Shown in pieces: positions 3,261 to 48,300 of a stretch of 64,000 nucleotides of DNA. The translations under genes and the position numbers were made by a program. The notes below the pieces were generated by a model. That model was not told where the DNA came from. It worked only from the letters and a program-made list of their open reading frames with translations, and did no database searches. The DNA is from Octopus sinensis. Lineage: Eukaryota. How positions within the stretch are numbered: the stretch's first letter is position 1; every line of letters starts with the position of its first letter. The DNA lies in contig NC_043002.1 in the NCBI RefSeq assembly GCF_006345805.1, positions 65,472,001-65,536,000 on the forward strand. Reading direction: 5' to 3'.

Positions 3261-3867
3261 GTTCATTTAATAGACTTTTGTTCATACCTGATTTTAATTT
3301 GTTCTCGGATTTCTCTATTTGTAGAAATGCGCGCGTGAGTGTGTGGGGAGAGAGTGAGTGGAAGAGAGAGTGGGAGGGTGAGAGAGGTCGAGCAGTTATT
3401 TGTTATACATAAATGTTTTCCAATTAAAAATAGCTAAAAAGAGATATCGTAAGACTAAAAATAGTAACAGTCGTATTCTACTTGACTTACAATTTATTGA
3501 GTGAAATGAAGGATGGCGATCAAGAGACAAGGAAAATTACATATATTTTCATTTCAGTGTTTCTTTCACTGCATTTACAAAGAAATAATTAAAGCCACCA
3601 TTTCCTCCCTTGCGAAGTATCAGCCATTATATATGCATTAGTGCTTTACCACTTGGAAATTGTTGTTATTGTTGTAGTTGCTGTTGTTTTTGTTTTTGTT
3701 GTTGTTGTTGTTGTTGATGTTGTTGCTGCTGTTTTTGCTATTGTTGATCTCGTTGTTGTTGCTTTTCTTCTTCGTCTTCTTCTTCTTATTATTATTATTA
3801 TTATTATTCTTTTTCTTCTTTTTTTCTTCTTCTTCTTCTTCTTCTTCTTCTTCTTCTCATTATTATT

Positions 3868-6833: not shown

Positions 6834-7007
6834 ATAGGCGCAGTAGTGGCTGTGTGGTAAGTAGCTTGCTTCCCAGCAACATGGTTCCGGGTTCACTTCC
6901 ACTGCGTGACACCTTGGGCAAGTGTCTTCTACTGTAGCCTCCGGCCGACCAAACCCTTGTAAGTGCATTTGGTAGACGGAAACTGAAGAATGCCTGTCGT
7001 GTATATG

Positions 7008-7065
<58 letters not shown>

Positions 7066-7272
7066 CGTGTGTGTGTGTATGTTCTTGTCCCCCGAACATC
7101 GCTTGACAACCGATGTTCGTGTGTTTACGCCCTTGTAATTTCGCGGTTCGGCAAAAGAGATGAACGGAATAAGCACTAGGCTTACAAAGAATAAGTCCTG
7201 GGGTCGATTTGCTCGACTAAAGGCTGTGCCCCAGCCAGGCCGCAGTCAAATGACTGAAACAAGTAAAAGAAT
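6834..7272 (+). mobile_element. tRNA-derived SINE, family B (octopus OK/OR-like), with internal (TA)(TG)n
   Basis: GTGGCTGTGTGGTAAG A-box, GGGTTCA B-box, CCTTGGGCAAGTGTCTTC, 3' GCCGCAGTCAAATGACTGAAACAAGTAAAAGA; many copies in the window. Confidence 0.9.
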
Positions 7273-9324: not shown

Positions 9325-10490
9325 CGAGGTGGTATCAAAACGTTCCTGTACTATTTCTGTAGCCCGCCAATGGATGGCAGCACGAGGTTGGGTGTGCATG
9401 GAGAGGTAGCAGGGACCTTCATGAAACAGTGTGCCGAGTGACATCGCTGTAATTACTTGGCAAATTATGAAATTTGTGTTTGTGTATGATGTACTCTGCG
9501 ATTTGGTAATGGACAAGGAGTTGGAGCAAAGGGCTAACGTGAAATTTTGTGTTAAACTTGGGAAGTCTGCTACAGAGAAATTGAGCATGCTTTGATAAGC
9601 ATGAGATGGGGCAATGTGTCTTACATAATGTTTCGAGTGGCACAGACGCTTCAAAAGTGGAAGAACGTCTCTGGGAGACGTTGAGCGATCTGAAAGAACT
9701 GCCATGAGCGTCAACTCCGGGAATGTGGAAAACATTCATCAGTTTTTTGCACGATGAGAGTCCGAGGACAATCAACGACATTGCTGATATCGTTTGTTGG
9801 TCTGTCATGTGGGTCCGAGCAGGCAATCCTAATGCCTGAATTGAACACACGGCGTGTGTCTGTTAGTTTGACCCCCTCCTGTTGACCGCTAAGCAGAAAG
9901 AACATCGCGTCGCTAACCCATCCTTCGTGTCGAGGATCATCACCGGTGACGTGAGTTGACTCTATGGGTAGGACCCTGAGGCGAAGCTTCAGTCCTCACA
10001 ATGGAAGAGGCTCTCCTCTCCACGAAATAAGAAGGCACGAAAGAGCCGCTGCTCAAACAAGAGCATGCTCATGGGTTTTTTTTTTTTTACCATTTCCGCG
10101 GTATTCGGCATCGAGAATTCGCCCCCTGAGCCAGGCCATCAATCTAGATTTTTACTGTCACGTTTTGAAGCGTTTGGAGGAAGACATTCGGCGAAGAATT
10201 TGGTTCTTCACGACGAACATGCACCCTATCACTGAGCTCTCCTTACTCTTGATTTTCTCTCCAAAAACAACATAGATTTGCTTCTGCACTCACACTATTC
10301 GCCAGATTTAGCAGCTGCGGATTTCCATCTCTTCAGCTCAAAGGTCACTGCTGTAACACTTGTTGAGATCCAGAGCAAATCGTAAAAGGTCCTCGACTCG
10401 CTTACGGAAAACGACTTCCAGGCCGGTTTCTAAAAGTAGCAGCAAGTATCTTAATATTGCTGCGCGGCATTATTTGGAAAGGTTATGTTC
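9325..10490 (+). mobile_element. Degenerate mariner element
   Basis: TA-CGAGGTGGTATCAAAA terminus; ATG 9509 MDKELEQRANVKFCVKLGKSATE; later RIITGD and HYSPDLAAADFHLF; many stops and indels. Confidence 0.85.
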
Positions 10491-10648
10491 TTAGTAAAGA
10501 AGTTATATTTATTAAAACATAACTAGTCCAAACTTGCATATCTTTCTCTCCCTATGCTCCCTCATAGGGTAATAAGGGATTTCATGTATTAAATATCATA
10601 TATATATATAGATATATATATATCATATATATATATATCATATTAGAT

Positions 10649-10681
<33 letters not shown>

Positions 10682-10701
10682 TATATATTAAATATATGTA
10701 T

Positions 10702-11298
10702 AAGTGGGAAAAAAACGACAGAAGGCTTAAATGTGCAAAAAAATTATATATATTTTTGTGTTAAAATGTCGGGAGAATATGGTGAAAAATTTTTTTTCCT
10801 TTCCTTAAATGACATAATTTTAAAAATTTTTAAAGAAAGTACCGGTTTCGCGTGTAGCTTTTCAAATTCTGTGACGTTATGTTTATATGGTATGGAGTTA
10901 TCGTTGTTTTTATTTCCCAGGGAGATTTCTAAATAAGGGGAGATAGTGAGTGATTTCTTCCGGTGTAAGGGAGATAATCGCTAAAAAATTTTTTTTTTTT
11001 TTTTTTTCCTTTTCCTTGGAATTTCTCTGGGTGCAGTATGTTCGGATGGTTGAGTCTGGGTTTGTACTTTCAATGAAGAATGTTTCCTTGTTCAGTCTCA
11101 TTTGTGTTGATGATCCGAAAGCACAGTGGTAAAATGGAAGATTAAAAATTGTGTGGGTGGCAGTTTGCTTGCGCATTTTCTCAATGTGCTCACTAAAAGG
11201 TATCATTCTATATTCTGGGAATGCAATCTGTTGTCGTTGCAGTGTGCATCTACGCTGAGTGATAGTCCCGTGGAACCCAATAGTCCCGTGGAACCCAA
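10702..11298 (-). mobile_element. Inverted 3' fragment (pLTR-like) of the PLE
   Basis: Reverse complement of ~13281-13852; ORF 10910..11206 reads MIPFSEHIEK..STQMRLNKETFFIE; lacks the last ~55 bp tail. Confidence 0.92.
10833..10870 (-). ncRNA. Minimal hammerhead ribozyme (U3-A8 variant), inverted copy, stem I imperfect
   Basis: Minus strand AGAAT-TTGAAAA-GC-TACAC-GC-GAAA-CCGG-TA-CTTTCTT. Confidence 0.65.
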
Positions 11299-13538
11299 TC
11301 TTTCAACCAAACCTCTTTCTAACATAAAAATTGACATCCTCGCAAAAGGGCTCAAATTTACACCACCTCCACGCAGAGCAAACCTAAATGAACTCAAGGA
11401 TAATATAACAGAATTTTGCAGAAAATTAAGACTAGCAGAAGCATCAACAGTTTCAATACTGAAGATGATCACTAGTCAAGAACAAAAGTGAACACATCCC
11501 ACACAGAGAAGAAATAAAGATCTTGACGAATTCTGTAACCACATTGAGAACTTCCCCTACCATACTATACATAAACAGAAAGCTAACCCAAATTTTAACA
11601 CTACGCATGGAAAGAACTGATAGAACTCCAAAATGATGAAGATATAACCATTAAGAAGCGGACAAGGAAAGCAGTTGTAATAATGGATACATCATACTAC
11701 AGAAATCTTGTAATTCCTTGCTTGATGAAGACCTACATTATGAAAAAATTACCAACTACACCCCACAAAAAATAATGAAAACTCTATCTTCACTAATTAA
11801 AACCCATGAAAAGGACTGACAACCAAATAGATTGATTTCCTAACAAACTTTAAATGCAAACTAGCCTTTTCTATGGTCTGCCAAAAATTCATAAAAGTCA
11901 AATTATAATGAAACCATTAAAAAATCACCAAAGACATACATACACACACCTAATCCGGGGGACCTAAAACTACGACCCATTGTAGCTGGCCCAACTTGTG
12001 AAACACACAGACTAAGTCTACTTATGGACATCCTCTTGAAACCCTTCCTTAAACATATCGATAGCCATATCAGAGATGACTTAGATATGTTAAACCACCT
12101 TACAAAAAAAACCAAGGAAGAAACAATCCTGGTTTCATTTGATGTAGTCAACTTGTATACCAGTATACCTCATAATAATGGACTGGAGGCAATACAATTC
12201 TGGTTAGACCAATTTTCCGGAAGAAATACCAAAAAAAGGATCAGTAAGGAATTCATTACTAAATCAATTGAATTCATCCTACACAATAACCACTTCATGT
12301 TTGACAATACATTTTACCGTCAAAAATCCGGAATTGCTATGGGTACAAGGGCAGCAAGCACCAGTCATTGCGAACTTAACAATGGGACATGGAAATAATC
12401 ATTTACCAGGAATCTCTATCAATCTTTGGAAACTCCCTCTCTCAATACATAAAAGAGAATTGGAAACGATTCCTAGACGATTGTTTCATTCTCTGGAATG
12501 AAAACATAGATATAACTCCTAAAATTTAAAACCTATTGAACAGCATAAACCCAATATACAGTTCACAATGGAATACAACCAAAAGGAGCTCCGTTCTTGG
12601 ATATACTAATTAAAAAATAACTATTACAAATAGAAACAGACATTTTTTACAAAGCCACAGACGCCAAACAATACCTTCTTTTTAATTCATGCCACCCAAG
12701 ACACACTAAAACAAACATCCCTTCAACCTTGCAAGAAGGATATGCACAATAGTGTCAGAACAAAATACCAGGAACTTTAGACTGCAAGAACTCAAAAACA
12801 CCCTAATTGACAGACATTACCCAGCTCAACTCATAGAGGATGGGATCAGACGTGCAACAGAAATCAACATAAACTTTAAGAAAAGTTCAACACAACAACA
12901 CACCTTCCCCCGAAAATACTACCTTACATATCTACATACAACCCCAGAAACAAAGAAGCCTTCACCATCATCACCCAGAATTTACCATACTTCATAAAAA
13001 CCCAAAATTAAAGGAAATTCTAAACATACACCAAATCATTATAAATACACAGCCTAAATCACTTAAAAAAGATTCTCACAAAGGCAATTGTCTTCTAAAA
13101 TTACGGATGCAAAAGTAAAAAAATGTGGTAGATCGAACTGTGCAACATGTCCTAACCTATTGGAAGGATCAGAATTCTCTTTAAAGAGGGACAGAAATTT
13201 AAGATCAAATCTGACTTTACTTGTGCCTCTGAAAACATAATTTATGTTATTAAATGCTCGGGCTGCCACCAAGACTACGTGGGTTCCACGGGACTATCAC
13301 TCAGGCGTAGATGCACACTGCATCGACAACAGATTGCATTCCCAGAATATAGAATGATACCTTTTAGTGAGCACATTGAGAAATGCGCAAAGCAACTACT
13401 GCCACAATTTTTAATCTTCCATTTTACCAATGTGCTTTCGGATCATCAACACAAATGAGACTGAACAAGGAAACATTCTTCATTGAAAAGTACAAACCCA
13501 GACTCAACCATCCGAACATACTGACACAGAGAAATTAA
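11297..13538 (+). pseudogene. 5'-truncated, frameshifted PLE RT-GIY-YIG ORF
   Basis: NLSTKPLSNIKIDILAKGLKFTP, LVSFDVVNLYTSIPH, GIAMGT; many 1-bp indels relative to the downstream copy. Confidence 0.9.
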
Positions 13539-13689
13539 CAAGGAAAAAGGAAAAAAAAAAAAAAAAAAAATTTTTTAGCGATTATCTCCCTTACACCGGA
13601 AGAAATCACTCACTATCTCTCCCCTTATTTAAAATCTCCTGGAAATAAAACACCAGCGATAACTCCATGCAATATAAACATAACGTCAC

Positions 13690-13729
13690 AAGAAATTTGA
13701 AAAGCTACACGCGAAACCGGTAATTTCTT
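13690..13729 (+). ncRNA. Minimal type I hammerhead ribozyme, U3-A8 variant core
   Basis: AAGAAAT-TTGAAAA-GC-TACAC-GC-GAAA-CCGG-TA-ATTTCTT; perfect 7-bp stem I, 2-bp stem II, palindromic CCGG loop III. Confidence 0.8.
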
Positions 13730-13911
13730 TAAAAATTTTAAAATTATGTCATTTTAAGAAGAAAAAGAAAAAATTTTCCAATATTCTCCAGACATTTTAA
13801 CACAAATATATATATTTTTTAACATTTAAGCCTTCTGTCGTTTTTTCACACTTTACTATTTTCTTATATATTCACCCACGTGCTTTACCAAACAAACTTT
13901 CTTATCTATAT

Positions 13912-16900
13912 ATGAAACACGTGAGACGAAATTGCCACAGAAGTCAAACACCTCGGACAAAACCTTAAATGAGGACATACTCAAAGAACTGAAAAATATT
14001 AATTCACAGCTTCTTAACCTGAACAACAAAATCGAGGAATCACTTACTCGCCCGTGAAAGTAAAAGCAGAAGATGCAACCCGATACACTGACCAGGTGAG
14101 TAAGGATCTACAACTGTTATATACAACACTGAACTCAATTTTCATCAACAAATCCGAAAATAATACACAGGCACCTAATGAAACACAGCAGGACACCATA
14201 CGCACCCAAACCAACCCAACAAAAGAAAATAGGAAACGTTTGGAATACAAACCTGCACAACAGAAAACTCACCTTCTGGAACATGATAAAAAATTCCAAC
14301 AAAGCAGATATCTACGAGGGATGGATAAACTCAACACCAATTATCCTCCCACGCAAATTCCAGATAAAATTAATTCCTAACGAGCCTGACGGACAGAGAT
14401 CTATTAGAGAAAAGTCAGCTCTGTTCAATTTTAAATCAGAAATAGACCTTCTAAGACTCAGGGCCTCCACAAATGAAGAAAAACTTAAAAGCATAGACGA
14501 GGAGATGCACAATCTAATACTAAAACATACCGAGGGACAACTCCTCGATAATACATTGGATCACTGGAAGGATTCCTGTGAGAGAGAAGAGAGAAATTCT
14601 CTCCTACGCTGGGAGAAAAACATGGACTTCTTCCAAAAATATAGTGAAGCCTTCAAAAATGAATTGGGTACAAATAATCCCTTCCTTAAGAAAATTACAA
14701 TAAATAAAAAAGAAAAACCTAACAACCCACGAACAACCCCCAACTATCCTCCATACACTAAAAACAGAAATCACCCACAACCAACCTTTACAAACCACGC
14801 TAGACTTAACAGGGAACTAGCTGAAAGAGGACGCGTCTATGAAAGAAATTACAACCAAAAACAGAACAACCAACAACATCCTAATACCAGACCCAACCAC
14901 CATACAGCACAATACGACACTAGGATAAGGAATACCCACACGCAATCATCTACTACTACCCCATGAACCCAAACTACTGGTCCCCACTAAACACAAGACA
15001 AACGCAAAGAAACACTATGTCAAGCAACACCCCACATACAAGAAGTTCGAAACCAAATATTCCCATACAGAAATTTTTACACACACCACACACAAAGCAT
15101 TACACCATAGATTCCATAGACACACACACACAACGATCGGAGGCAACAATAACCACCACCACTCCCCCGACCAATGCCACACAACCTCACAGACAACTCA
15201 TACAAACAAAATTACACCCAACATTTTTTAGCCAGGGACCAGGGACACCAGGACACAGGCTGGAACCTAGTAATAAGGAAAAACCGAAGATAATCAATCT
15301 TTCACCAAACCTCTTTCTAACATAAAAATTGACATCCTCGCAAAGGCTCAAATTTCACCAACTCCACGCAGAGCAAACCTAAATGAACTCAAGGATATAT
15401 AACAGATTTTGCAGAAAATTAAGACTAGCAGAAGCATCAAACAGTTTCAATACTGAAGATGAATCACTAGTCAAGAACAAAAGTGAACACATCCCACACA
15501 GAGGAAGAAATAAAGATCTTGACGAATTCTGTAACCACATTGAGAACTTCCCCTACCATACTATACATAAACAGAAAGCTAACCCAAATTTTAACACTAC
15601 GCAATGGAAAGAACTGATAGAACTCCAAAATGATGAAGATATAACCATTAAGGAAGCGGACAAGGGAAATGCAGTTGTAATAATGGATACATCATACTAC
15701 AGAAATCTTGTAATTTCCTTGCTTGATGAAGACCTACATTATGAAAAAATTACCAACTACACCCCACAAAAAATAATGAAAACTCTATCTTCACTAATTA
15801 AAACCCATGAAAAGGAACTGACAACCAAATAGATTGATTTCCTAACAAACTTTAAATGCAAACCTAGCCTTTTCTATGGTCTGCCAAAAATTCATAAAAG
15901 TCAAATTATAAATGAAACCATTAAAAAATCACCAAAGACATACATACACACACCTAATCCGGGGGACCTAAAACTACGACCCATTGTAGCTGGCCCAACT
16001 TGTGAAACACACAGACTAAGTCTACTTATGGACATCCTCTTGAAACCCTTCCTTAAACATATCGATAGCCATATCAGAGATGACTTAGATATGTTAAACC
16101 ACCTTACAAAAAAAACCAAGGAAGAAACAATCCTGGTTTCATTTGATGTAGTCAACTTGTATACCAGTATACCTCATAATTATGGACTGGAGGCAATACA
16201 ATTCTGGTTAGACCAATTTCCGGAAGAAATACCAAAAAGGATCAGTAAGGAATTCATTACTAAATCAATTGAATTCATCCTACACAATAACCACTTCATG
16301 TTTGACAATACATTTTACCGTCAAAAATCCGGAATTGCTATGGGTACAAGGGCAGCACCAGTCATTGCGAACTTAACAATGGGATACATGGAAATAATCA
16401 TTTACCAGGAATCTCTATCAATCTTTGGAAACTCCCTCTCTCAATACATAAAAGAGAATTGGAAACGATTCCTAGACGATTGTTTCATTCTCTGGAATGA
16501 AAACATAGATAAACTCCTAAAATTTAAAAACCTATTGAACAGCATAAACCCAAATATACAGTTCACAATGGAATACAACCAAAAGGAGCTCCCGTTCTTG
16601 GATATACTAATTAAAAAAATTAACCTTAAAATAGAAACAGACATTTTTACAAAGCCACAGACGCCAAACAATACCTTCTTTTTAATTCATGCCACCCAAG
16701 ACACACTAAAACAAACATCCCCTTCAACCTTGCAAGAAGGATATGCACAATAGTGTCAGAACAAAATACCAGGAACTTTAGACTGCAAGAACTCAAAAAC
16801 ACCCTAATTGACAGACATTACCCAGCTCAACTCATAGAGGATGGGATCAGACGTGCAACAGAAATCAACATAGAAACTTTAAGAAAAGTTCAACACAACA

Positions 16901-17547
16901 ACACACCTTCCCCGAAAATACTACCTTACATATCTACATACAACCCCAGAAACAAAGAAGCCTTCACCATCATCACCCAGAATTTACCAATACTTCATAA
17001 AAACCCAAAATTAAAGGAAATTCTAAACATACACCAAATCATTAAAAGCTACAAACAGCCTAAATCACTTAAAAAGATTCTCACAAAGGCAAAATTGTCT
17101 TCTAAAATTACGGATGCAAAAGTAAAAAAATGTGGTAGATCGAACTGTGCAACATGTCCTAACCTATTGGAAGGATCAGAATTCTTCTTTAAAGAGGGAC
17201 AGAAATTTAAGATCAAATCTGACTTTACTTGTGCCTCTGAAAACATAATTTATGTTATTAAATGCTCGGGCTGCCACCAAGACTACGTGGGTTCCACGGG
17301 ACTATCACTCAGGCGTAGATGCACACTGCATCGACAACAGATTGCATTCCCAGAATATAGAATGATACCTTTTAGTGAGCACATTGAGAAATGCGCAAAG
17401 CAACTACTGCCACAATTTTTAATCTTCCCATTTTACCAATGTGCTTTCGGATCATCAACACAAATGAGACTGAACAAGGAAACATTCTTCATTGAAAAGT
17501 ACAAACCCAGACTCAACCATCCGAACATACTGACACAGAGAAATTAA
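13912..17547 (+). CDS. PLE polyprotein (N-terminal extension + reverse transcriptase + Cys linker + GIY-YIG endonuclease), broken by several frameshifts; start uncertain
   Basis: ORFs 14178-14966, 14963-15325 (KIINLS), 15383-15832 (IKEADKGNAVVIMD), FYGLPKIHK and LRPIVAG, 16028-16753 (SFDVVNLYTSI, GIAMGT, WKRFLDDCF, LPFLD), 16753-17547 (CGRSNCATC, NIIYVIKCSGCHQDYVGST, RLNKETFFIEKYKPRLN). Confidence 0.9.
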
Positions 17548-17697
17548 CAAGGAAAAGGGAAAAAAAAAAAAAAAAAAAAAAATTTTTAGCGATTATCTCC
17601 CTTACACCGGAAGAAATCACTCACTACCTCCCCTTATTTAGAAATCTCCTGGAAATAAAAACAACGATAACTCCATGCAATATAAACATAACGTCAC

Positions 17698-17737
17698 AAG
17701 AAATTTGAAAAGCTACACGCGAAACCGGTAATTTCTT
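17698..17737 (+). ncRNA. Minimal type I hammerhead ribozyme, U3-A8 variant core
   Basis: Identical to 13690-13729; predicted cleavage after GUA at 17730. Confidence 0.8.
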
Positions 17738-18016
17738 TAAAAATTTTAAAATTATGTCATTTTAAGGAAAGGAAAAAAAATTTTTCCAATATTCTCCAGA
17801 CATTTTAACACAAATATATATATTTTTTAACATTTAAGCCTTCTGTCGTTTTTTCACACTTTACTATTTTCTTATATATTCACCCACGTGCTTTACCAAA
17901 CACACTTTCTTATCTATATATATATATATATATATACACATATATATATATATATATATAATATATATGTATATATATGTATATACATATATATGTGTGT
18001 GTATGTATATATATAT

Positions 18017-18477: not shown

Positions 18478-18892
18478 CCAGGACTGGCTGTGTGGTAAGT
18501 ATCTTGCTTGCCAACCACATTGTTCCGGGTTCATTCCCACTGCGTGGCACCTTGGGCAAGTGTCTTCAACTTTAGCCTCGGGTCGACCAAAGTCTTGTGA
18601 GTGGATTTGGTAGAGGGAAACTGAAAGAAACCCTTCATATATATATATGTGTGTGTGTGCGTGTGTGTGTATGTGCGTGTGTGTGTGTGCATATGTTTGT
18701 GTGTCTGTTTTTTTTCCCCCCAACATCGCTTGACAACCGATGCTGGTGTGTTTAGGGGTTCGGCAAAAGAGACCAATTGAATAAGTACTATGCTTCCAAA
18801 GAATAAGTCCTGGGGTCGATTTGCTCGACGAAAGGCAGTGCCCCAGCATGGCCGCAGTCAAAATGAGTGAAACAAGTAAATGAGTAAAAGAG
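18478..18892 (+). mobile_element. SINE family B
   Basis: Collinear with 6834-7272, including the internal microsatellite. Confidence 0.9.
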
Positions 18893-19345: not shown

Positions 19346-19911
19346 CTAGGTTGTCCGGAAAATTCCTGCCGATTTATAGTAGCTTACATTTCGACTTATT
19401 TTAGAACATGGTTGAGTTCATAAAATAGGATTTGACTACACCTCCATTTAGAACACAGTTTAAGCTATCTTTTCGTGGAAGAAGGTTTATGTTCCTATAA
19501 CCTGTGTTAATTCTGTAACCCTTTAAAATGAAAGATAAGAAAGTTCATTTTCGGCACTTGATGATTTGGGAACCAGACAAAAATTGCAGCAGCTCGGCTG
19601 GGATGTGTTATCTCACCCTCAATATTCACCAGATATTGCTCCTTCAGTTTTCCACTTATTCAGGTCTCTGCAGAATAGTCTTAATGGTAAAAATTTCAAT
19701 TCCATGGATGACGTAAAACGATACCTTGATGAATTCTTTGCCATGAAACCACCTCAATTCTGGGAAGAGGGTATTTTCAAGTTAAAGGAAAGATGGAGAC
19801 GCATTGAGCAAGAAAATGGTTCATATTTGGTTGATTAAAGATGTAATGGCAAGTATTTATTGACCTTTTTCTTTACATTAAAACTCGGCACGAATTTTCC
19901 GGACAACCCAA
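19346..19911 (+). mobile_element. Internally deleted mariner element
   Basis: TIRs GGTTGTCCGGAAAATTCCTGCCGA / TCGGCACGAATTTTCCGGACAACC with TA flanks; N-terminal MKDKKVHFRHLMIWE joined to C-terminal LGWDVLSHPQYSPDIAPSVFHLF..ERWRRIEQENGSYLVD*. Confidence 0.92.
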
Positions 19912-27214: not shown

Positions 27215-27524
27215 GTTCTAATTTTCAGTACTACTTATTGTTTTGTTTTTTTCTATTTATCCATATGTGTGTGTCTGCATGTATGTTTTTGCGTGTATGA
27301 AAGAGAGGTAATTACGTTTGCTTACGCTTCACTGAATCTCTTTTTCATTATACTTACTCTCTTACTTGTTTGACTGCGACCATGCTGAAGCACCGCCTTT
27401 AGTCGAACAAATCAACCCCAGGACTTATTCTTTGTAAGCCTAGAACTTATTCTATCGGTTTCTTTTGCCGAACCGGTGACGTGAAAACACCACCGTCGGT
27501 TGTCAAGGGACGTTGGGGGGGAGA

Positions 27525-27610
<86 letters not shown>

Positions 27611-28545
27611 CACGACGGGCTTCTTCCAGTTTCCGGCTACCAAATCCACTCACAAGGCTTTGGTCGGCCCGAGGCTATAGTAGAAGACACTAACACATGG
27701 TGCCACGCAGTGGGACTGAACTTGGGACCATGCGGTTGGTAAGCAAGCTACATACCAAACAGCCGCTCCTTTGACATTTCATCTTCAACTGTTATTATTC
27801 TACGTCTAAATCCCTCTTCTAGAAAGCCTTGGTTGCCACCAGAGAATACACGGCAATTTGCGAACATTTCTTCATAAATGAACACCAGATTTTATAACTT
27901 GACGCTTCCCTATGGCTCATCTAAGGAAGTGACGATAAAGTTGCTGGGACGGGTCTCATAATGGTCCTTATCGTCACCATTTTAAGAAAGCAAACCTGAC
28001 CTTATTTCATTTTTGTATTTGATTTGAAAGATTCTTGAAGTGAACTCGTGTAATGAAACAGATTTGGTGTATTTAGGACGATCATTATGCCAATAATAAT
28101 CTCACGTTTATTATTGACATAACGACCTTCCCAACATACAACAAAACCTTATCTTCGGCTCCGGATTGTAGAGATGACGGCCAGGAAATTTCTTGCTATC
28201 ATTAAATGCTAAAACATAATTAAATTTTGAAGGGATTTAATAATAATTATTTCGGAGTTTGGCTCGAGACTTTCACTTACTCAAATAGTCTTAGATATAT
28301 CTCAACAGAATATCCAGTTTATCATCAAAATATCTCCATCAACAACTTCCAGACGACTAACCAGACGACAATTAATCAAGATAAAGCTCTAATTTTCAGT
28401 ATTATTTATTGTTTTGTTTTCTGTTTATCAATATGTCTGTGTCCGCATGTATGTGTATGCCTGTATGAATGACAGATAATTACGTTTGCTTACGCTTCAC
28501 TGAATCTCTTTTTCATTATACTTACTTCATATTTCATTTTCAACT
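27215..28545 (+). repeat. Local direct repeat (27215-27358 and 28388-28526); first copy interrupted by a SINE
   Basis: AATTACGTTTGCTTACGCTTCACTGAATCTCTTTTTCATTATACTTACT is identical in both copies, with ~90 bp similar upstream. Confidence 0.85.
27355..27770 (-). mobile_element. SINE family B
   Basis: Reverse complement of the 6834-7272 type, with internal (CA)n(TA)n. Confidence 0.9.
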
Positions 28546-35770: not shown

Positions 35771-35972
35771 TATATGTGGGGGAGGGGTGTATACGTATGT
35801 ATATACAATAGGCTTTTTTCAGTTTCCGTCTACCAAATCCACTCACAAGACTTTGGTCGGCCTGAATTTATTGTAGAAAACACTTGCTCAAGTTGCCACA
35901 CAGTGGAACTGAACCCGGTACCATAAGGTTGAGAAACAAGCTTCTTACAACGCAACCACTTCTGTGCCTATA
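35480..35972 (-). mobile_element. SINE family B
   Basis: Reverse-complement homology to 6834-7272; internal (TA)n expanded. Confidence 0.85.
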
Positions 35973-47819: not shown

Positions 47820-48300
47820 TCAGTCAACAAATTAACGAATGCGCAGAACGATTATGACCGCAAATCCAAATTTTCCCATTTTATCAATTTCCCTCCTAGA
47901 CTTCAACACAAGTAAGACTGAATAAAGAAGCCTCATTTATCTAAAAATATAAATCAGAATGAAATAGGCACCCATATAATAAAGGACTTACCTCATATAA
48001 TGGAACATGTAAGCCAGAATATAGTAGACAACACACACACAAAAAATTTTAATTACAGATTTACTTCCCCTTTACTGCAAAATAAATGAGTGAACAATTA
48101 TCTCCCCTAGCTATACTTTTTCCCAAGTAATTTGTCTCTTTCAACTCTCAGTTTGATGAGGAATGCGAAACTGGGCCTTAATTTAATAATGTTGAAAGAA
48201 CAGAAGCTTATTTTGTAAATAATTTTATATTTATTATCATGGCTCGAATATACTCTTAAATCCTGTTAGAAAAAGAAAAAACTTGCGTTTTTCATCATTT
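47820..48300 (+). mobile_element. Old 3' fragment of a PLE related to the 10.7-17.9 kb family, with degenerate HHR (~48153-48176)
   Basis: TTCCCATTTTATCAA..TCAACACAAGTAAGACTGAATAAAGAA (FPFYQ..STQVRLNKE); TTGATGA-GGAATGC-GAAA-CTGG. Confidence 0.7.

What the first reader, a model, noticed from the sequence alone, without database searches (positions are those of the whole stretch)
13690..17737. Young tandem PLE with non-canonical U3-A8 minimal hammerheads 4008 nt apart
Seen: both direct copies carry the identical motif AAGAAAT-UUGAAAA-GC-UACAC-GC-GAAA-CCGG-UA/AUUUCUU. Known: the hammerhead core is CUGANGA with a tertiary C3-G8 pair, and PLE pLTRs carry minimal HHRs whose palindromic loop III may allow dimer-type cleavage. 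Here both pair positions are changed together (U3-A8) and the 7-bp stem I is perfect. Inference: the motif is functional but invisible to CUGANGA-based searches, and read-through cleavage at 13722 and 17730 would release a unit-length ~4.0 kb RNA that might circularise.
Basis: partly seen in the sequence, partly recalled or inferred. Interest (0 to 1): 0.8.

Follow-up and report, generated by a model that had tools for sequence, protein, structure and literature searches.

The report
Penelope hammerhead with cut-site circle fossils
A young jumping-gene family carries a tiny hammerhead-ribozyme motif of an already published variant type, and two other insertions of the family consist of short repeats that each begin at the motif's predicted cutting point, which likely means the RNA was cut there and probably closed into a circle before being copied back into the genome.

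Summary
Confirmed: an identical 40-nt motif at 13690 and 17698, 4008 nt apart, in a young Penelope-like element (C-terminal GIY-YIG, Neptune/Nematis type); a damaged third copy is inverted at 10833-10870. It is a genuine minimal hammerhead. Related families found by protein keep it in otherwise dissimilar UTRs, and the 3-8 pair holds in 13 of 13 representatives (U-A, U·G, A-U, C-G). The headline is not new: U3-A8 PLE hammerheads (same UUGAAAA core), dimer cleavage and the circle hypothesis are in Cervera & de la Peña 2014, and this scan noted U3-A8 motifs before on other DNA. Two additions. Sister families have an A3-U8 core (751 matches, 0 control), not found in the papers searched. Two insertions elsewhere in the genome are head-to-tail short units whose 5 and 3 identical joins all start at the predicted cut (±1 nt). 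These are likely fossils of in-vivo cleavage and circularisation. Limits: only two loci, found by a search restricted to that site (one was recovered again by an unrestricted search), not checked in raw reads, and no cleavage assay. All insertion ends lie 149 or 191 nt past the cut, so templates were intact or re-ligated there.

The parts
13690..13729 (+). Minimal type I hammerhead motif, copy 1 (U3-A8, 7-bp stem I, 2-bp stem II, palindromic ACCGGU); predicted cut after 13722
17698..17737 (+). Identical hammerhead motif, copy 2; predicted cut after 17730
10833..10870 (-). Third, damaged copy (core intact, stem I broken) in the inverted arm
10681..11279 (-). Inverted 5'-truncated arm of the same insertion, ending at the 'short' end (equivalent of 17879) in (TA)n
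11296..13913 (+). 5'-truncated upstream unit (second round), supplies the pseudo-LTR with hammerhead copy 1
13914..17921 (+). Full 4008-nt unit of the Penelope-like element
14133..14966 (+). Largest open piece of an upstream ORF1-like region (no Pfam match)
15224..15230 (+). Slippery-type heptamer before a G/C-rich stretch where the ORF1 and RT frames overlap (possible -1 frameshift; inferred)
15659..16753 (+). Reverse transcriptase region (DKG motif from 15659; PF00078 at E 1.3e-8), interrupted by a private stop at 15830-15832 and a frameshift near 16643
17125..17547 (+). CX4CxxC linker plus C-terminal GIY-YIG endonuclease with CCHH residues (PF01541 E 0.0027, below the curated cut-off)
17880..17921 (+). 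42-nt 'tail' between the two recurrent 3' ends (17879 and 17921), the likely reverse-transcription start sites
   Evidence: PMC11167929
17922..18099 (.). (TA)n target microsatellite (a matching run flanks the other end near 10600-10680)

Best explanation
The motif is a minimal hammerhead ribozyme in the pseudo-LTR of a young Penelope-like retrotransposon that is predicted to cut only as a dimer, likely did cut in vivo at the predicted site, and whose cut RNA was probably ligated into circles that the element's reverse transcriptase copied round more than once. Steps: (1) shown: the motif, its place 150 nt after the endonuclease stop, and its conserved pairings across families; (2) predicted: two copies pair through ACCGGU to build helix III, and in the pseudo-LTR context the active fold is a minor state, so cutting would be slow or protein-assisted; (3) inferred from two genomic fossils: the cut leaves a 5' end at A1.1 that was joined to an upstream break in the same RNA; (4) inferred: a host RtcB-type ligase makes the join; (5) shown as genomic pattern, mechanism from the literature: copying starts at two internal sites 149 and 191 nt downstream of the cut, one for each end of the broken (TA)n target, giving two arms; (6) inferred: cutting at both copies and religation would give a 4.0-kb circle, and 1.65 rounds on it would give this window's tandem.
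For: Conservation without circularity: families found by protein search only, 48-68% identical in the endonuclease, carry the motif in their 3' UTR: F 20 of 25 copies, G 21 of 21, H 8 of 9; family I 0 of 5 by the filter but recognisable by eye in degenerate form. The only notable UTR similarity between families A and F begins inside the motif (E 8.5e-4). The 3-8 pair is kept in 13 of 13 aligned representatives with four pair types (U-A 4, U·G 4, A-U 3, C-G 2); covariation score 0.567 against 0.165 for shuffles and 0.07-0.16 for slid partners. Genome counts: A3 with U8 751 against A3 with another base 43; U3 with a pyrimidine at 8 only 11, against 2244 for a purine at 8 under a slightly looser pattern. 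Compensatory stem I change within family F. Dimer: helix III has probability 0 in the monomer; the ACCGGU duplex is -8.3 kcal/mol; the swapped double hammerhead -14.1 against -15.5 for the best dimer fold. Fossils: L410 has 5 identical joins of unit position 199 to 3818/3819, L409 has 3 identical joins of 1658 to 3817-3819 (predicted first base after the cut: 3818), in both arms, with only 1-2 nt of shared A, no splice signals, and normal (TA)n-flanked long and short ends. Eight other non-native same-strand joins in the loci held fall elsewhere and occur once each. Rough odds of two joins at those two positions: 3e-4 to 0.02, depending on assumptions. One template: the window's two units share 5 substitutions found in 0 of 11-67 other pieces; pieces of one insertion share non-majority letters at 3.35 per kb against 0.78 between insertions. 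Precedent: U3-A8 active in vitro (as cited in PMC3088659); RtcB circularises hammerhead-cut animal retrozymes (PMC7229834).
Against: No cleavage or RNA-end data: eight runs were laid, all as contigs and none on record as RNA; no join into the cut site was listed. The fossil evidence is two loci. Both came first from a search restricted to joins at that site; only L410 was recovered again by the unrestricted search; I could not run a matched control at another position or check raw reads, and L410 lies on a 44-kb unplaced contig. Simple 5' truncations do not pile up at the cut: 1 of 10 matches (L411), and of 34 resolved upstream pseudo-LTR pieces one starts at 3819, 5 within 3812-3840, and 21 run through the site. 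About 20 of those 34 end within 300 nt of the tail, which fits linear transcripts starting in the pseudo-LTR at least as well as circles. In the one PLE reconstituted in vitro, hammerhead mutants still inserted and no RNA-seq reads ended at the cut (PMC11167929). Stem I has only 0.06-0.15 probability in the pseudo-LTR context; stem II is 2 bp, shorter than in any of the 56 published representatives I read (3 bp or more). The shuffle control ignores relatedness, and most rows of the 13-row alignment were found by motif patterns that limit positions 3 and 8.
Confidence: 0.62

Rival explanations
1. The ribozyme cuts, but no covalent circle forms: the reverse transcriptase runs off the cut 5' end and jumps to the 3' end of the same linear RNA, or switches between the terminal repeats by homology, which also yields tandem rounds.
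For: Explains joins at position 3818 and shared private variants equally. No circle was seen directly. The many short upstream pseudo-LTR pieces fit linear templates. End-to-end template jumping by non-LTR reverse transcriptases is established (recalled).
Against: All 5 and all 3 joins are letter-identical with no added bases, whereas repeated jumps usually vary (recalled); RtcB ligation of such ends is shown for animal retrozymes.
Confidence: 0.2
2. The motif is kept as a folding or dimerisation signal, or as a passenger, and rarely or never cuts; tandems come from uncut read-through RNA and the two special loci are chance deletions.
For: All insertion ends lie downstream of the cut and most templates were intact across it. 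Cleavage was dispensable in vitro for a Poseidon element. Naiad elements thrive without hammerheads (PMC8557442). Published min-hammerheads cleave poorly. The core has drifted through U-A, U·G and A-U, and some subfamilies carry an extra base before U3 of a kind that slowed a saltern hammerhead.
Against: The invariant columns across families are U4, G5, A6, A9, G12, A13, A14, A15.1, C15.2 and U16.1, mostly catalytic-core positions, and 3-8 mismatches are rare. Two independent loci join at the predicted scissile bond to within 1 nt.
Confidence: 0.15
3. Chance match in an AT-rich UTR, multiplied only because the element is multicopy.
For: AT-rich context; among close subfamilies other UTR blocks are as conserved as the motif (28-30 of 40 invariant columns against 28 of 40).
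Against: 0 hits in 100 shuffles; the motif persists in protein-ascertained families with dissimilar UTRs and with compensatory changes.
Confidence: 0.02

Closest known systems
Minimal hammerheads of metazoan PLEs, U3-A8 variant of Schistosoma mansoni Cercyon elements (Cervera & de la Peña 2014, PMC4209133)
   Same: Type I, in the pseudo-LTR, same UUGAAAA core (S. mansoni family 4 in Fig. S3), G10.1-C11.1, palindromic helix III needing a dimer; same proposed role including circles.
   Different: Stem II is 2 bp (published 3-8 bp), no unpaired base after A9, 4-nt CCGG insert, 7-bp stem I; Neptune/Nematis-type element; sister families with A3-U8, absent from the 56 representatives read.
Poseidon element PAc of Anolis carolinensis (Frangieh et al. 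2024, PMC11167929)
   Same: Two internal start sites for reverse transcription downstream of the hammerhead that define the tail; both target strands extended; template intact across the ribozyme. Here 25 of 25 two-armed insertions have one long and one short end.
   Different: PAc has C3-G8, its ribozyme overlaps the ORF start, and its start sites are not homologous to the target; here both ends coincide with TATATAT runs matching the (TA)n target. That paper found no ends at the cut site; here two genomic loci join there.
Non-LTR retrozymes of animals (Cervera & de la Peña 2020, PMC7229834; bioRxiv 10.64898/2026.07.22.740005)
   Same: Short head-to-tail units thought to be copied from hammerhead-generated circles by PLE enzymes; RtcB ligation shown in vitro.
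   Different: Retrozyme units each keep a whole hammerhead and form families; the units in L409 and L410 have lost the 5' part of the ribozyme, start at the cut, and were each seen at one locus.
Natural hammerhead core variants (Perreault et al. 2011, PMC3088659)
   Same: U3-A8 covariation seen in nature; insertions at 2a/2b and in GAAA described.
   Different: A3-U8 is not mentioned in the passages read; those examples are not PLEs.

Membership tests
Penelope-like element, endonuclease-containing, C-terminal EN | Reverse transcriptase with DKG motif followed by GIY-YIG endonuclease with CCHH | tested here: met
   PF00078 E 1.3e-8; DKG and GIY-YIG/CCHH in translation; PF01541 E 0.0027, under the curated cut-off
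Penelope-like element, endonuclease-containing, C-terminal EN | Partial tandem forming pseudo-LTRs, inverted truncated arm, 30-40 bp tail at one end | tested here: met
   (tail is 42 nt); features as in PMC8557442
Neptune or Nematis clade | CX2-5CxxC linker before the endonuclease; (TA)n targeting | tested here: met
   CX4CxxC; (TA)n flanks; definition
Neptune versus Nematis | Placement in an RT phylogeny with reference elements | not testable with these tools
   No named reference set was available; the tree holds only unnamed homologues and own-genome families
Minimal type I hammerhead of PLEs | Core U4 G5 A6 N7 A9, G12 A13 A14, A15.1-U16.1, H17 | tested here: met
   Sequence; invariant in 13 representatives
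Minimal type I hammerhead of PLEs | Base pair between positions 3 and 8 | tested here: met
   U3-A8 here; 13 of 13 paired, four pair types; genome counts
Minimal type I hammerhead of PLEs | Stem I, G10.1-C11.1, palindromic helix III | tested here: met
Minimal type I hammerhead of PLEs | Long helix II and an unpaired base between 9 and 10.1 (usual, not universal) | tested here: not met
   2-bp helix II, no extra base; families G and H have 4-5 bp; published set
Minimal type I hammerhead of PLEs | Self-cleavage after position 17, as a dimer | not testable with these tools
   Only indirect: joins at the predicted site in L409 and L410
Rfam hammerhead families | Match to a curated covariance model | tested here: not met
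   No hammerhead model at E up to 10 in 13640-13780
Non-LTR retrozyme (for L409, L410) | A complete hammerhead in every tandem unit | tested here: not met
   Units begin at the cut and lack the 5' part of the motif

The most novel reading that the evidence does not exclude
Genomes keep readable fossils of PLE ribozyme activity: when a hammerhead-cut RNA is ligated to a premature break, rolling-circle copying writes short repeats whose joins mark the scissile bond to the base. L409 and L410 would be direct genomic evidence that a PLE hammerhead, here one with U3-A8 and a 2-bp stem II, cuts in vivo and that autonomous PLEs replicate through RNA circles. The clade's switching among U-A, U·G and A-U at 3-8 would show a core tolerance beyond the published natural set.
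Probability: 0.5. Interest if true: 0.72.

Novelty: new member of a known kind. Interest (0 to 1): 0.52.

Why it matters
Whether PLE hammerheads cut in vivo and whether PLE RNA circularises has been open since 2014; the 2024 reconstitution found cleavage dispensable and no RNA ends at the site. Repeated joins that start at the predicted cut are a genome-only read-out that can be sought in any long-read assembly, which makes the question testable at scale. The A3-U8 families also show that descriptor searches limited to CUGA or UUGA miss hundreds of motifs in one genome. The U3-A8 motif by itself is ordinary.

Tried and rejected
Relatives in other organisms with their UTRs: the metagenome scan with the endonuclease found no relative; the pattern scan gave 119 loci, 0 with a PLE protein match, so all covariation rests on one genome. 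RNA evidence: no RNA holder listed; eight runs laid as contigs, no join into the cut site listed and no ends; contigs X1 record 8 and X4 record 31 bridge the site but may be DNA; no verdict on expression or cleavage. Shifted register (the base before U3 pairing with 8): suggested by four family-B copies, rejected because family F shows position 3 itself covarying with 8 and family B mostly has U or C there with G8. C3·A8 matches to the descriptor (L031, L039, L049, L059) lie in another element's RT-coding region without stem I: not counted as hammerheads. Short same-strand repeats with whole motifs (L426, L427, L428, L429): in L426 the printed unit includes non-element sequence and (TA)n, and the other three look alike by self-alignment, so I read them as DNA-level duplications, not circles. 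Pile-up of simple truncations at the cut: not found; the 5 of 20 ends in a 20-nt window after the cut (binomial P 0.014) used a width chosen afterwards and is not relied on. Four of the 10 matches were single-A losses in an otherwise whole motif and were set aside. The endonuclease tree leaves families F and I unresolved, so A3-U8 arose once or twice; rows L070 and L071 are unreliable (frameshifted). Papers not held: Lünse et al. 2017, Przybilski & Hammann 2007, Nelson & Uhlenbeck 2008; they may report A3-U8 or 2-bp stem II variants.
Full report
Observation. A relaxed descriptor finds only these two sites in the window and none in 100 dinucleotide shuffles. No Rfam hammerhead model matches. 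A third, damaged copy lies on the minus strand at 10833-10870.

The element. The motif sits about 150 nt after the stop of a GIY-YIG endonuclease that follows a reverse transcriptase (DKG motif, PF00078; CX4CxxC linker; CCHH residues). By the definitions in PMC8557442 (passages) this is a C-terminal-endonuclease PLE of Neptune or Nematis type. The insertion is: inverted arm (10681-11279), 5'-truncated unit (11296-13913), full unit (13914-17921), between (TA)n runs. The genome G000 is a 2.7-Gb animal assembly; the few named homologues are molluscan, and I recall the window's SINE and microsatellite load as octopus-like, which no call tested. The family is young (0.6-0.8% from the column majority) and abundant (1123 candidates; 34 of the first 100 listed matches have this exact core). 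This copy is probably dead: both units have a private stop at 15830-15832 plus indels, many of them likely assembly errors.

Is the motif selected? Among nine close subfamily representatives it is no more conserved than two other UTR blocks (28 of 40 invariant columns against 28-30), so close relatives do not decide. I therefore searched the genome with two distant endonuclease proteins (30 best loci each) and read the UTRs. Family F (about 65% identity) has the motif in 20 of 25 copies with an A3-U8 core and a compensatory change in stem I; family G (55%) in 21 of 21 with U3-A8 and a 4-bp stem II; family H (48%) in 8 of 9 with U3-A8, a 5-bp stem II and another palindrome; family I (62%) fails the filter in 5 of 5 but shows a degenerate A3-U8 form by eye in 4 of 5. 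Outside the motif these UTRs hardly align. Family B and some sister subfamilies have U3·G8, and canonical C3-G8 families also occur. In 13 representatives the 3-8 pair is always kept, with four pair types; most of these rows were found by motif, so the protein-ascertained families carry the weight. Genome counts agree: A3-U8 751 with 0 control, A3 with another base 43, U3 with a pyrimidine 11. These counts are weighted by copy number.

How it would work. Helix III cannot form in a monomer; ACCGGU pairs between two copies at -8.3 kcal/mol and the swapped double hammerhead lies within 1.4 kcal/mol of the best dimer fold. In the pseudo-LTR context stem I has only 0.06-0.15 probability. So slow, dimer- or protein-dependent cutting is predicted. 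In 25 of 25 two-armed insertions one arm ends at unit position about 3966 and the other at about 4008, 149 and 191 nt past the cut. This matches the two internal start sites shown for a Poseidon element (PMC11167929, parts 1-2 of 4) and means that templates were intact, uncut or re-ligated, across the ribozyme.

Fossils at the cut site. A search for the post-cut sequence without its normal upstream base gave 10 matches: 4 single-A losses, 1 simple truncation at the site (L411), and 5 matches in two loci. L410 is a two-armed insertion of 390-nt units with 5 identical joins from position 199 to 3818/3819; L409 has 1848-nt units with 3 identical joins from 1658 to 3817-3819. The first base after the predicted cut is 3818. 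The joins share only 1-2 A, are not splice sites, recur in both arms, and the insertions have the normal long and short ends in (TA)n. Because that search looked only at this site, I ran an unrestricted one for the tail-to-body junction (49 matches). It recovered L410 and two other body-to-pseudo-LTR joins elsewhere (3690, 3951), each seen once; in all, 8 other non-native joins in the loci held occur once each. Rough odds for two joins at those two positions are 3e-4 to 0.02 (assumed totals). The simplest reading is a 5'-OH end from the ribozyme joined to a premature break, then copied round; end-to-end jumping on a linear RNA is the main rival and still needs the cut. Consistent with one template read more than once, the window's two units share five substitutions absent from 11-67 other pieces, and pieces of one insertion share variants four times as often as pieces of different insertions; gene conversion after insertion is not excluded.

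Against. Two loci only, no raw-read check, no matched control at another position. Simple truncations do not pile up at the cut: 21 of 34 upstream pieces run through it and about 20 of 34 end within 300 nt of the tail, as linear transcripts would. The RNA look-ups gave no verdict. In the Poseidon system cleavage needed protein, was dispensable for insertion, and left no read ends.

Comparison with print. Cervera & de la Peña 2014 (PMC4209133; main text parts 1-2 of 4, supplement parts 1-2 of 3) already report U3-A8 in Schistosoma Cercyon PLEs (about 1300 hits, same UUGAAAA), U3·G8 in Saccoglossus, low dimer activity and the circle hypothesis. Perreault 2011 (passages) reports natural U3-A8 and cites in vitro activity. 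Retrozyme circles and RtcB ligation are in PMC7229834 (passages) and a 2026 preprint (passages and sections 14, 16); PMC6765202 (passages) reviews the model. Cut-site joins were not evident in the listings of two searches (titles and abstract starts only) or in this scan's notes. Three key papers were not held, and the preprint's supplements were not seen, so these absences are provisional. Earlier notes of this scan describe U3-A8 PLE hammerheads in other genomes and call them known.

Verdict. The motif is real and a new member of a known kind; alone it would score about 0.25. The A3-U8 sister families and the two cut-site fossils bear on the open question of in-vivo cleavage and circles and suggest a genome-only test, which lifts interest to about 0.5.

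Noticed in passing
L244-L272, L334-L345 (family F); L257-L273 (family I): Sister PLE families with an A3-U8 hammerhead core; 751 exact matches in the genome against 0 control. Three of 5 family I copies also have an extra U inside GAAA.
   Followed up: yes
L410 (G000:C12162) and L409 (G000:C2 near 128.18 Mb): Insertions made of 390-nt and 1848-nt units whose repeated joins start at the predicted hammerhead cut.
   Followed up: yes
window 13914-15260: An upstream ORF1-like region (no Pfam match) overlaps the RT frame at a slippery-type heptamer (15224-15230) followed by a G/C-rich stretch conserved in many copies: possible -1 frameshift, a feature the legend of Fig. 1 in PMC8557442 mentions for some PLEs.
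   Followed up: partly
window 14093-14101: Perfect 5' splice-site-like sequence near the start of the unit; no matching spliced form was seen in the contigs laid. Families G and B have an acceptor-like AG just before the hammerhead core, as in Drosophila Penelope.
   Followed up: partly
L034, L040, L044, L053, L056, L061, L071, L076, L077, L078, L080: Sister subfamilies have a 6-bp stem I with one extra U before position 3 (a '2a' insertion), with either A8 or G8, and were still mobile.
   Followed up: partly
window 48130-48190 (L331): An old family-B PLE fragment with a decayed U3·G8 hammerhead lies in the same window.
   Followed up: partly
window 17879 and 17921: Both recurrent 3' ends coincide with TATATAT runs inside the element, so priming may use pairing with the nicked (TA)n target, unlike the non-homologous start sites reported for Poseidon.
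   Followed up: partly
window 9330-10460 and 19350-19910: Degenerate mariner-like DNA transposon fragments (recognised from recall, not tested).
   Followed up: no
window 18480-18710, 6840-7090, 27520-27770, 35790-35970: Copies of a roughly 200-nt SINE-like repeat ending in (TG)n, in both orientations.
   Followed up: no
L089, L095, L096, L097: Other min-hammerhead families with U3·G8 and 4-5 bp stem II, often as inverted pairs; no PLE protein matched within the loci held.
   Followed up: no
L132: A C3-G8 hammerhead-like motif with the same CCGG palindrome in an AT-rich metagenome contig without a PLE protein match.
   Followed up: no
P0026: A PLE RT-endonuclease homologue labelled as from a bacterial metagenome bin, probably eukaryotic contamination.
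   Followed up: no
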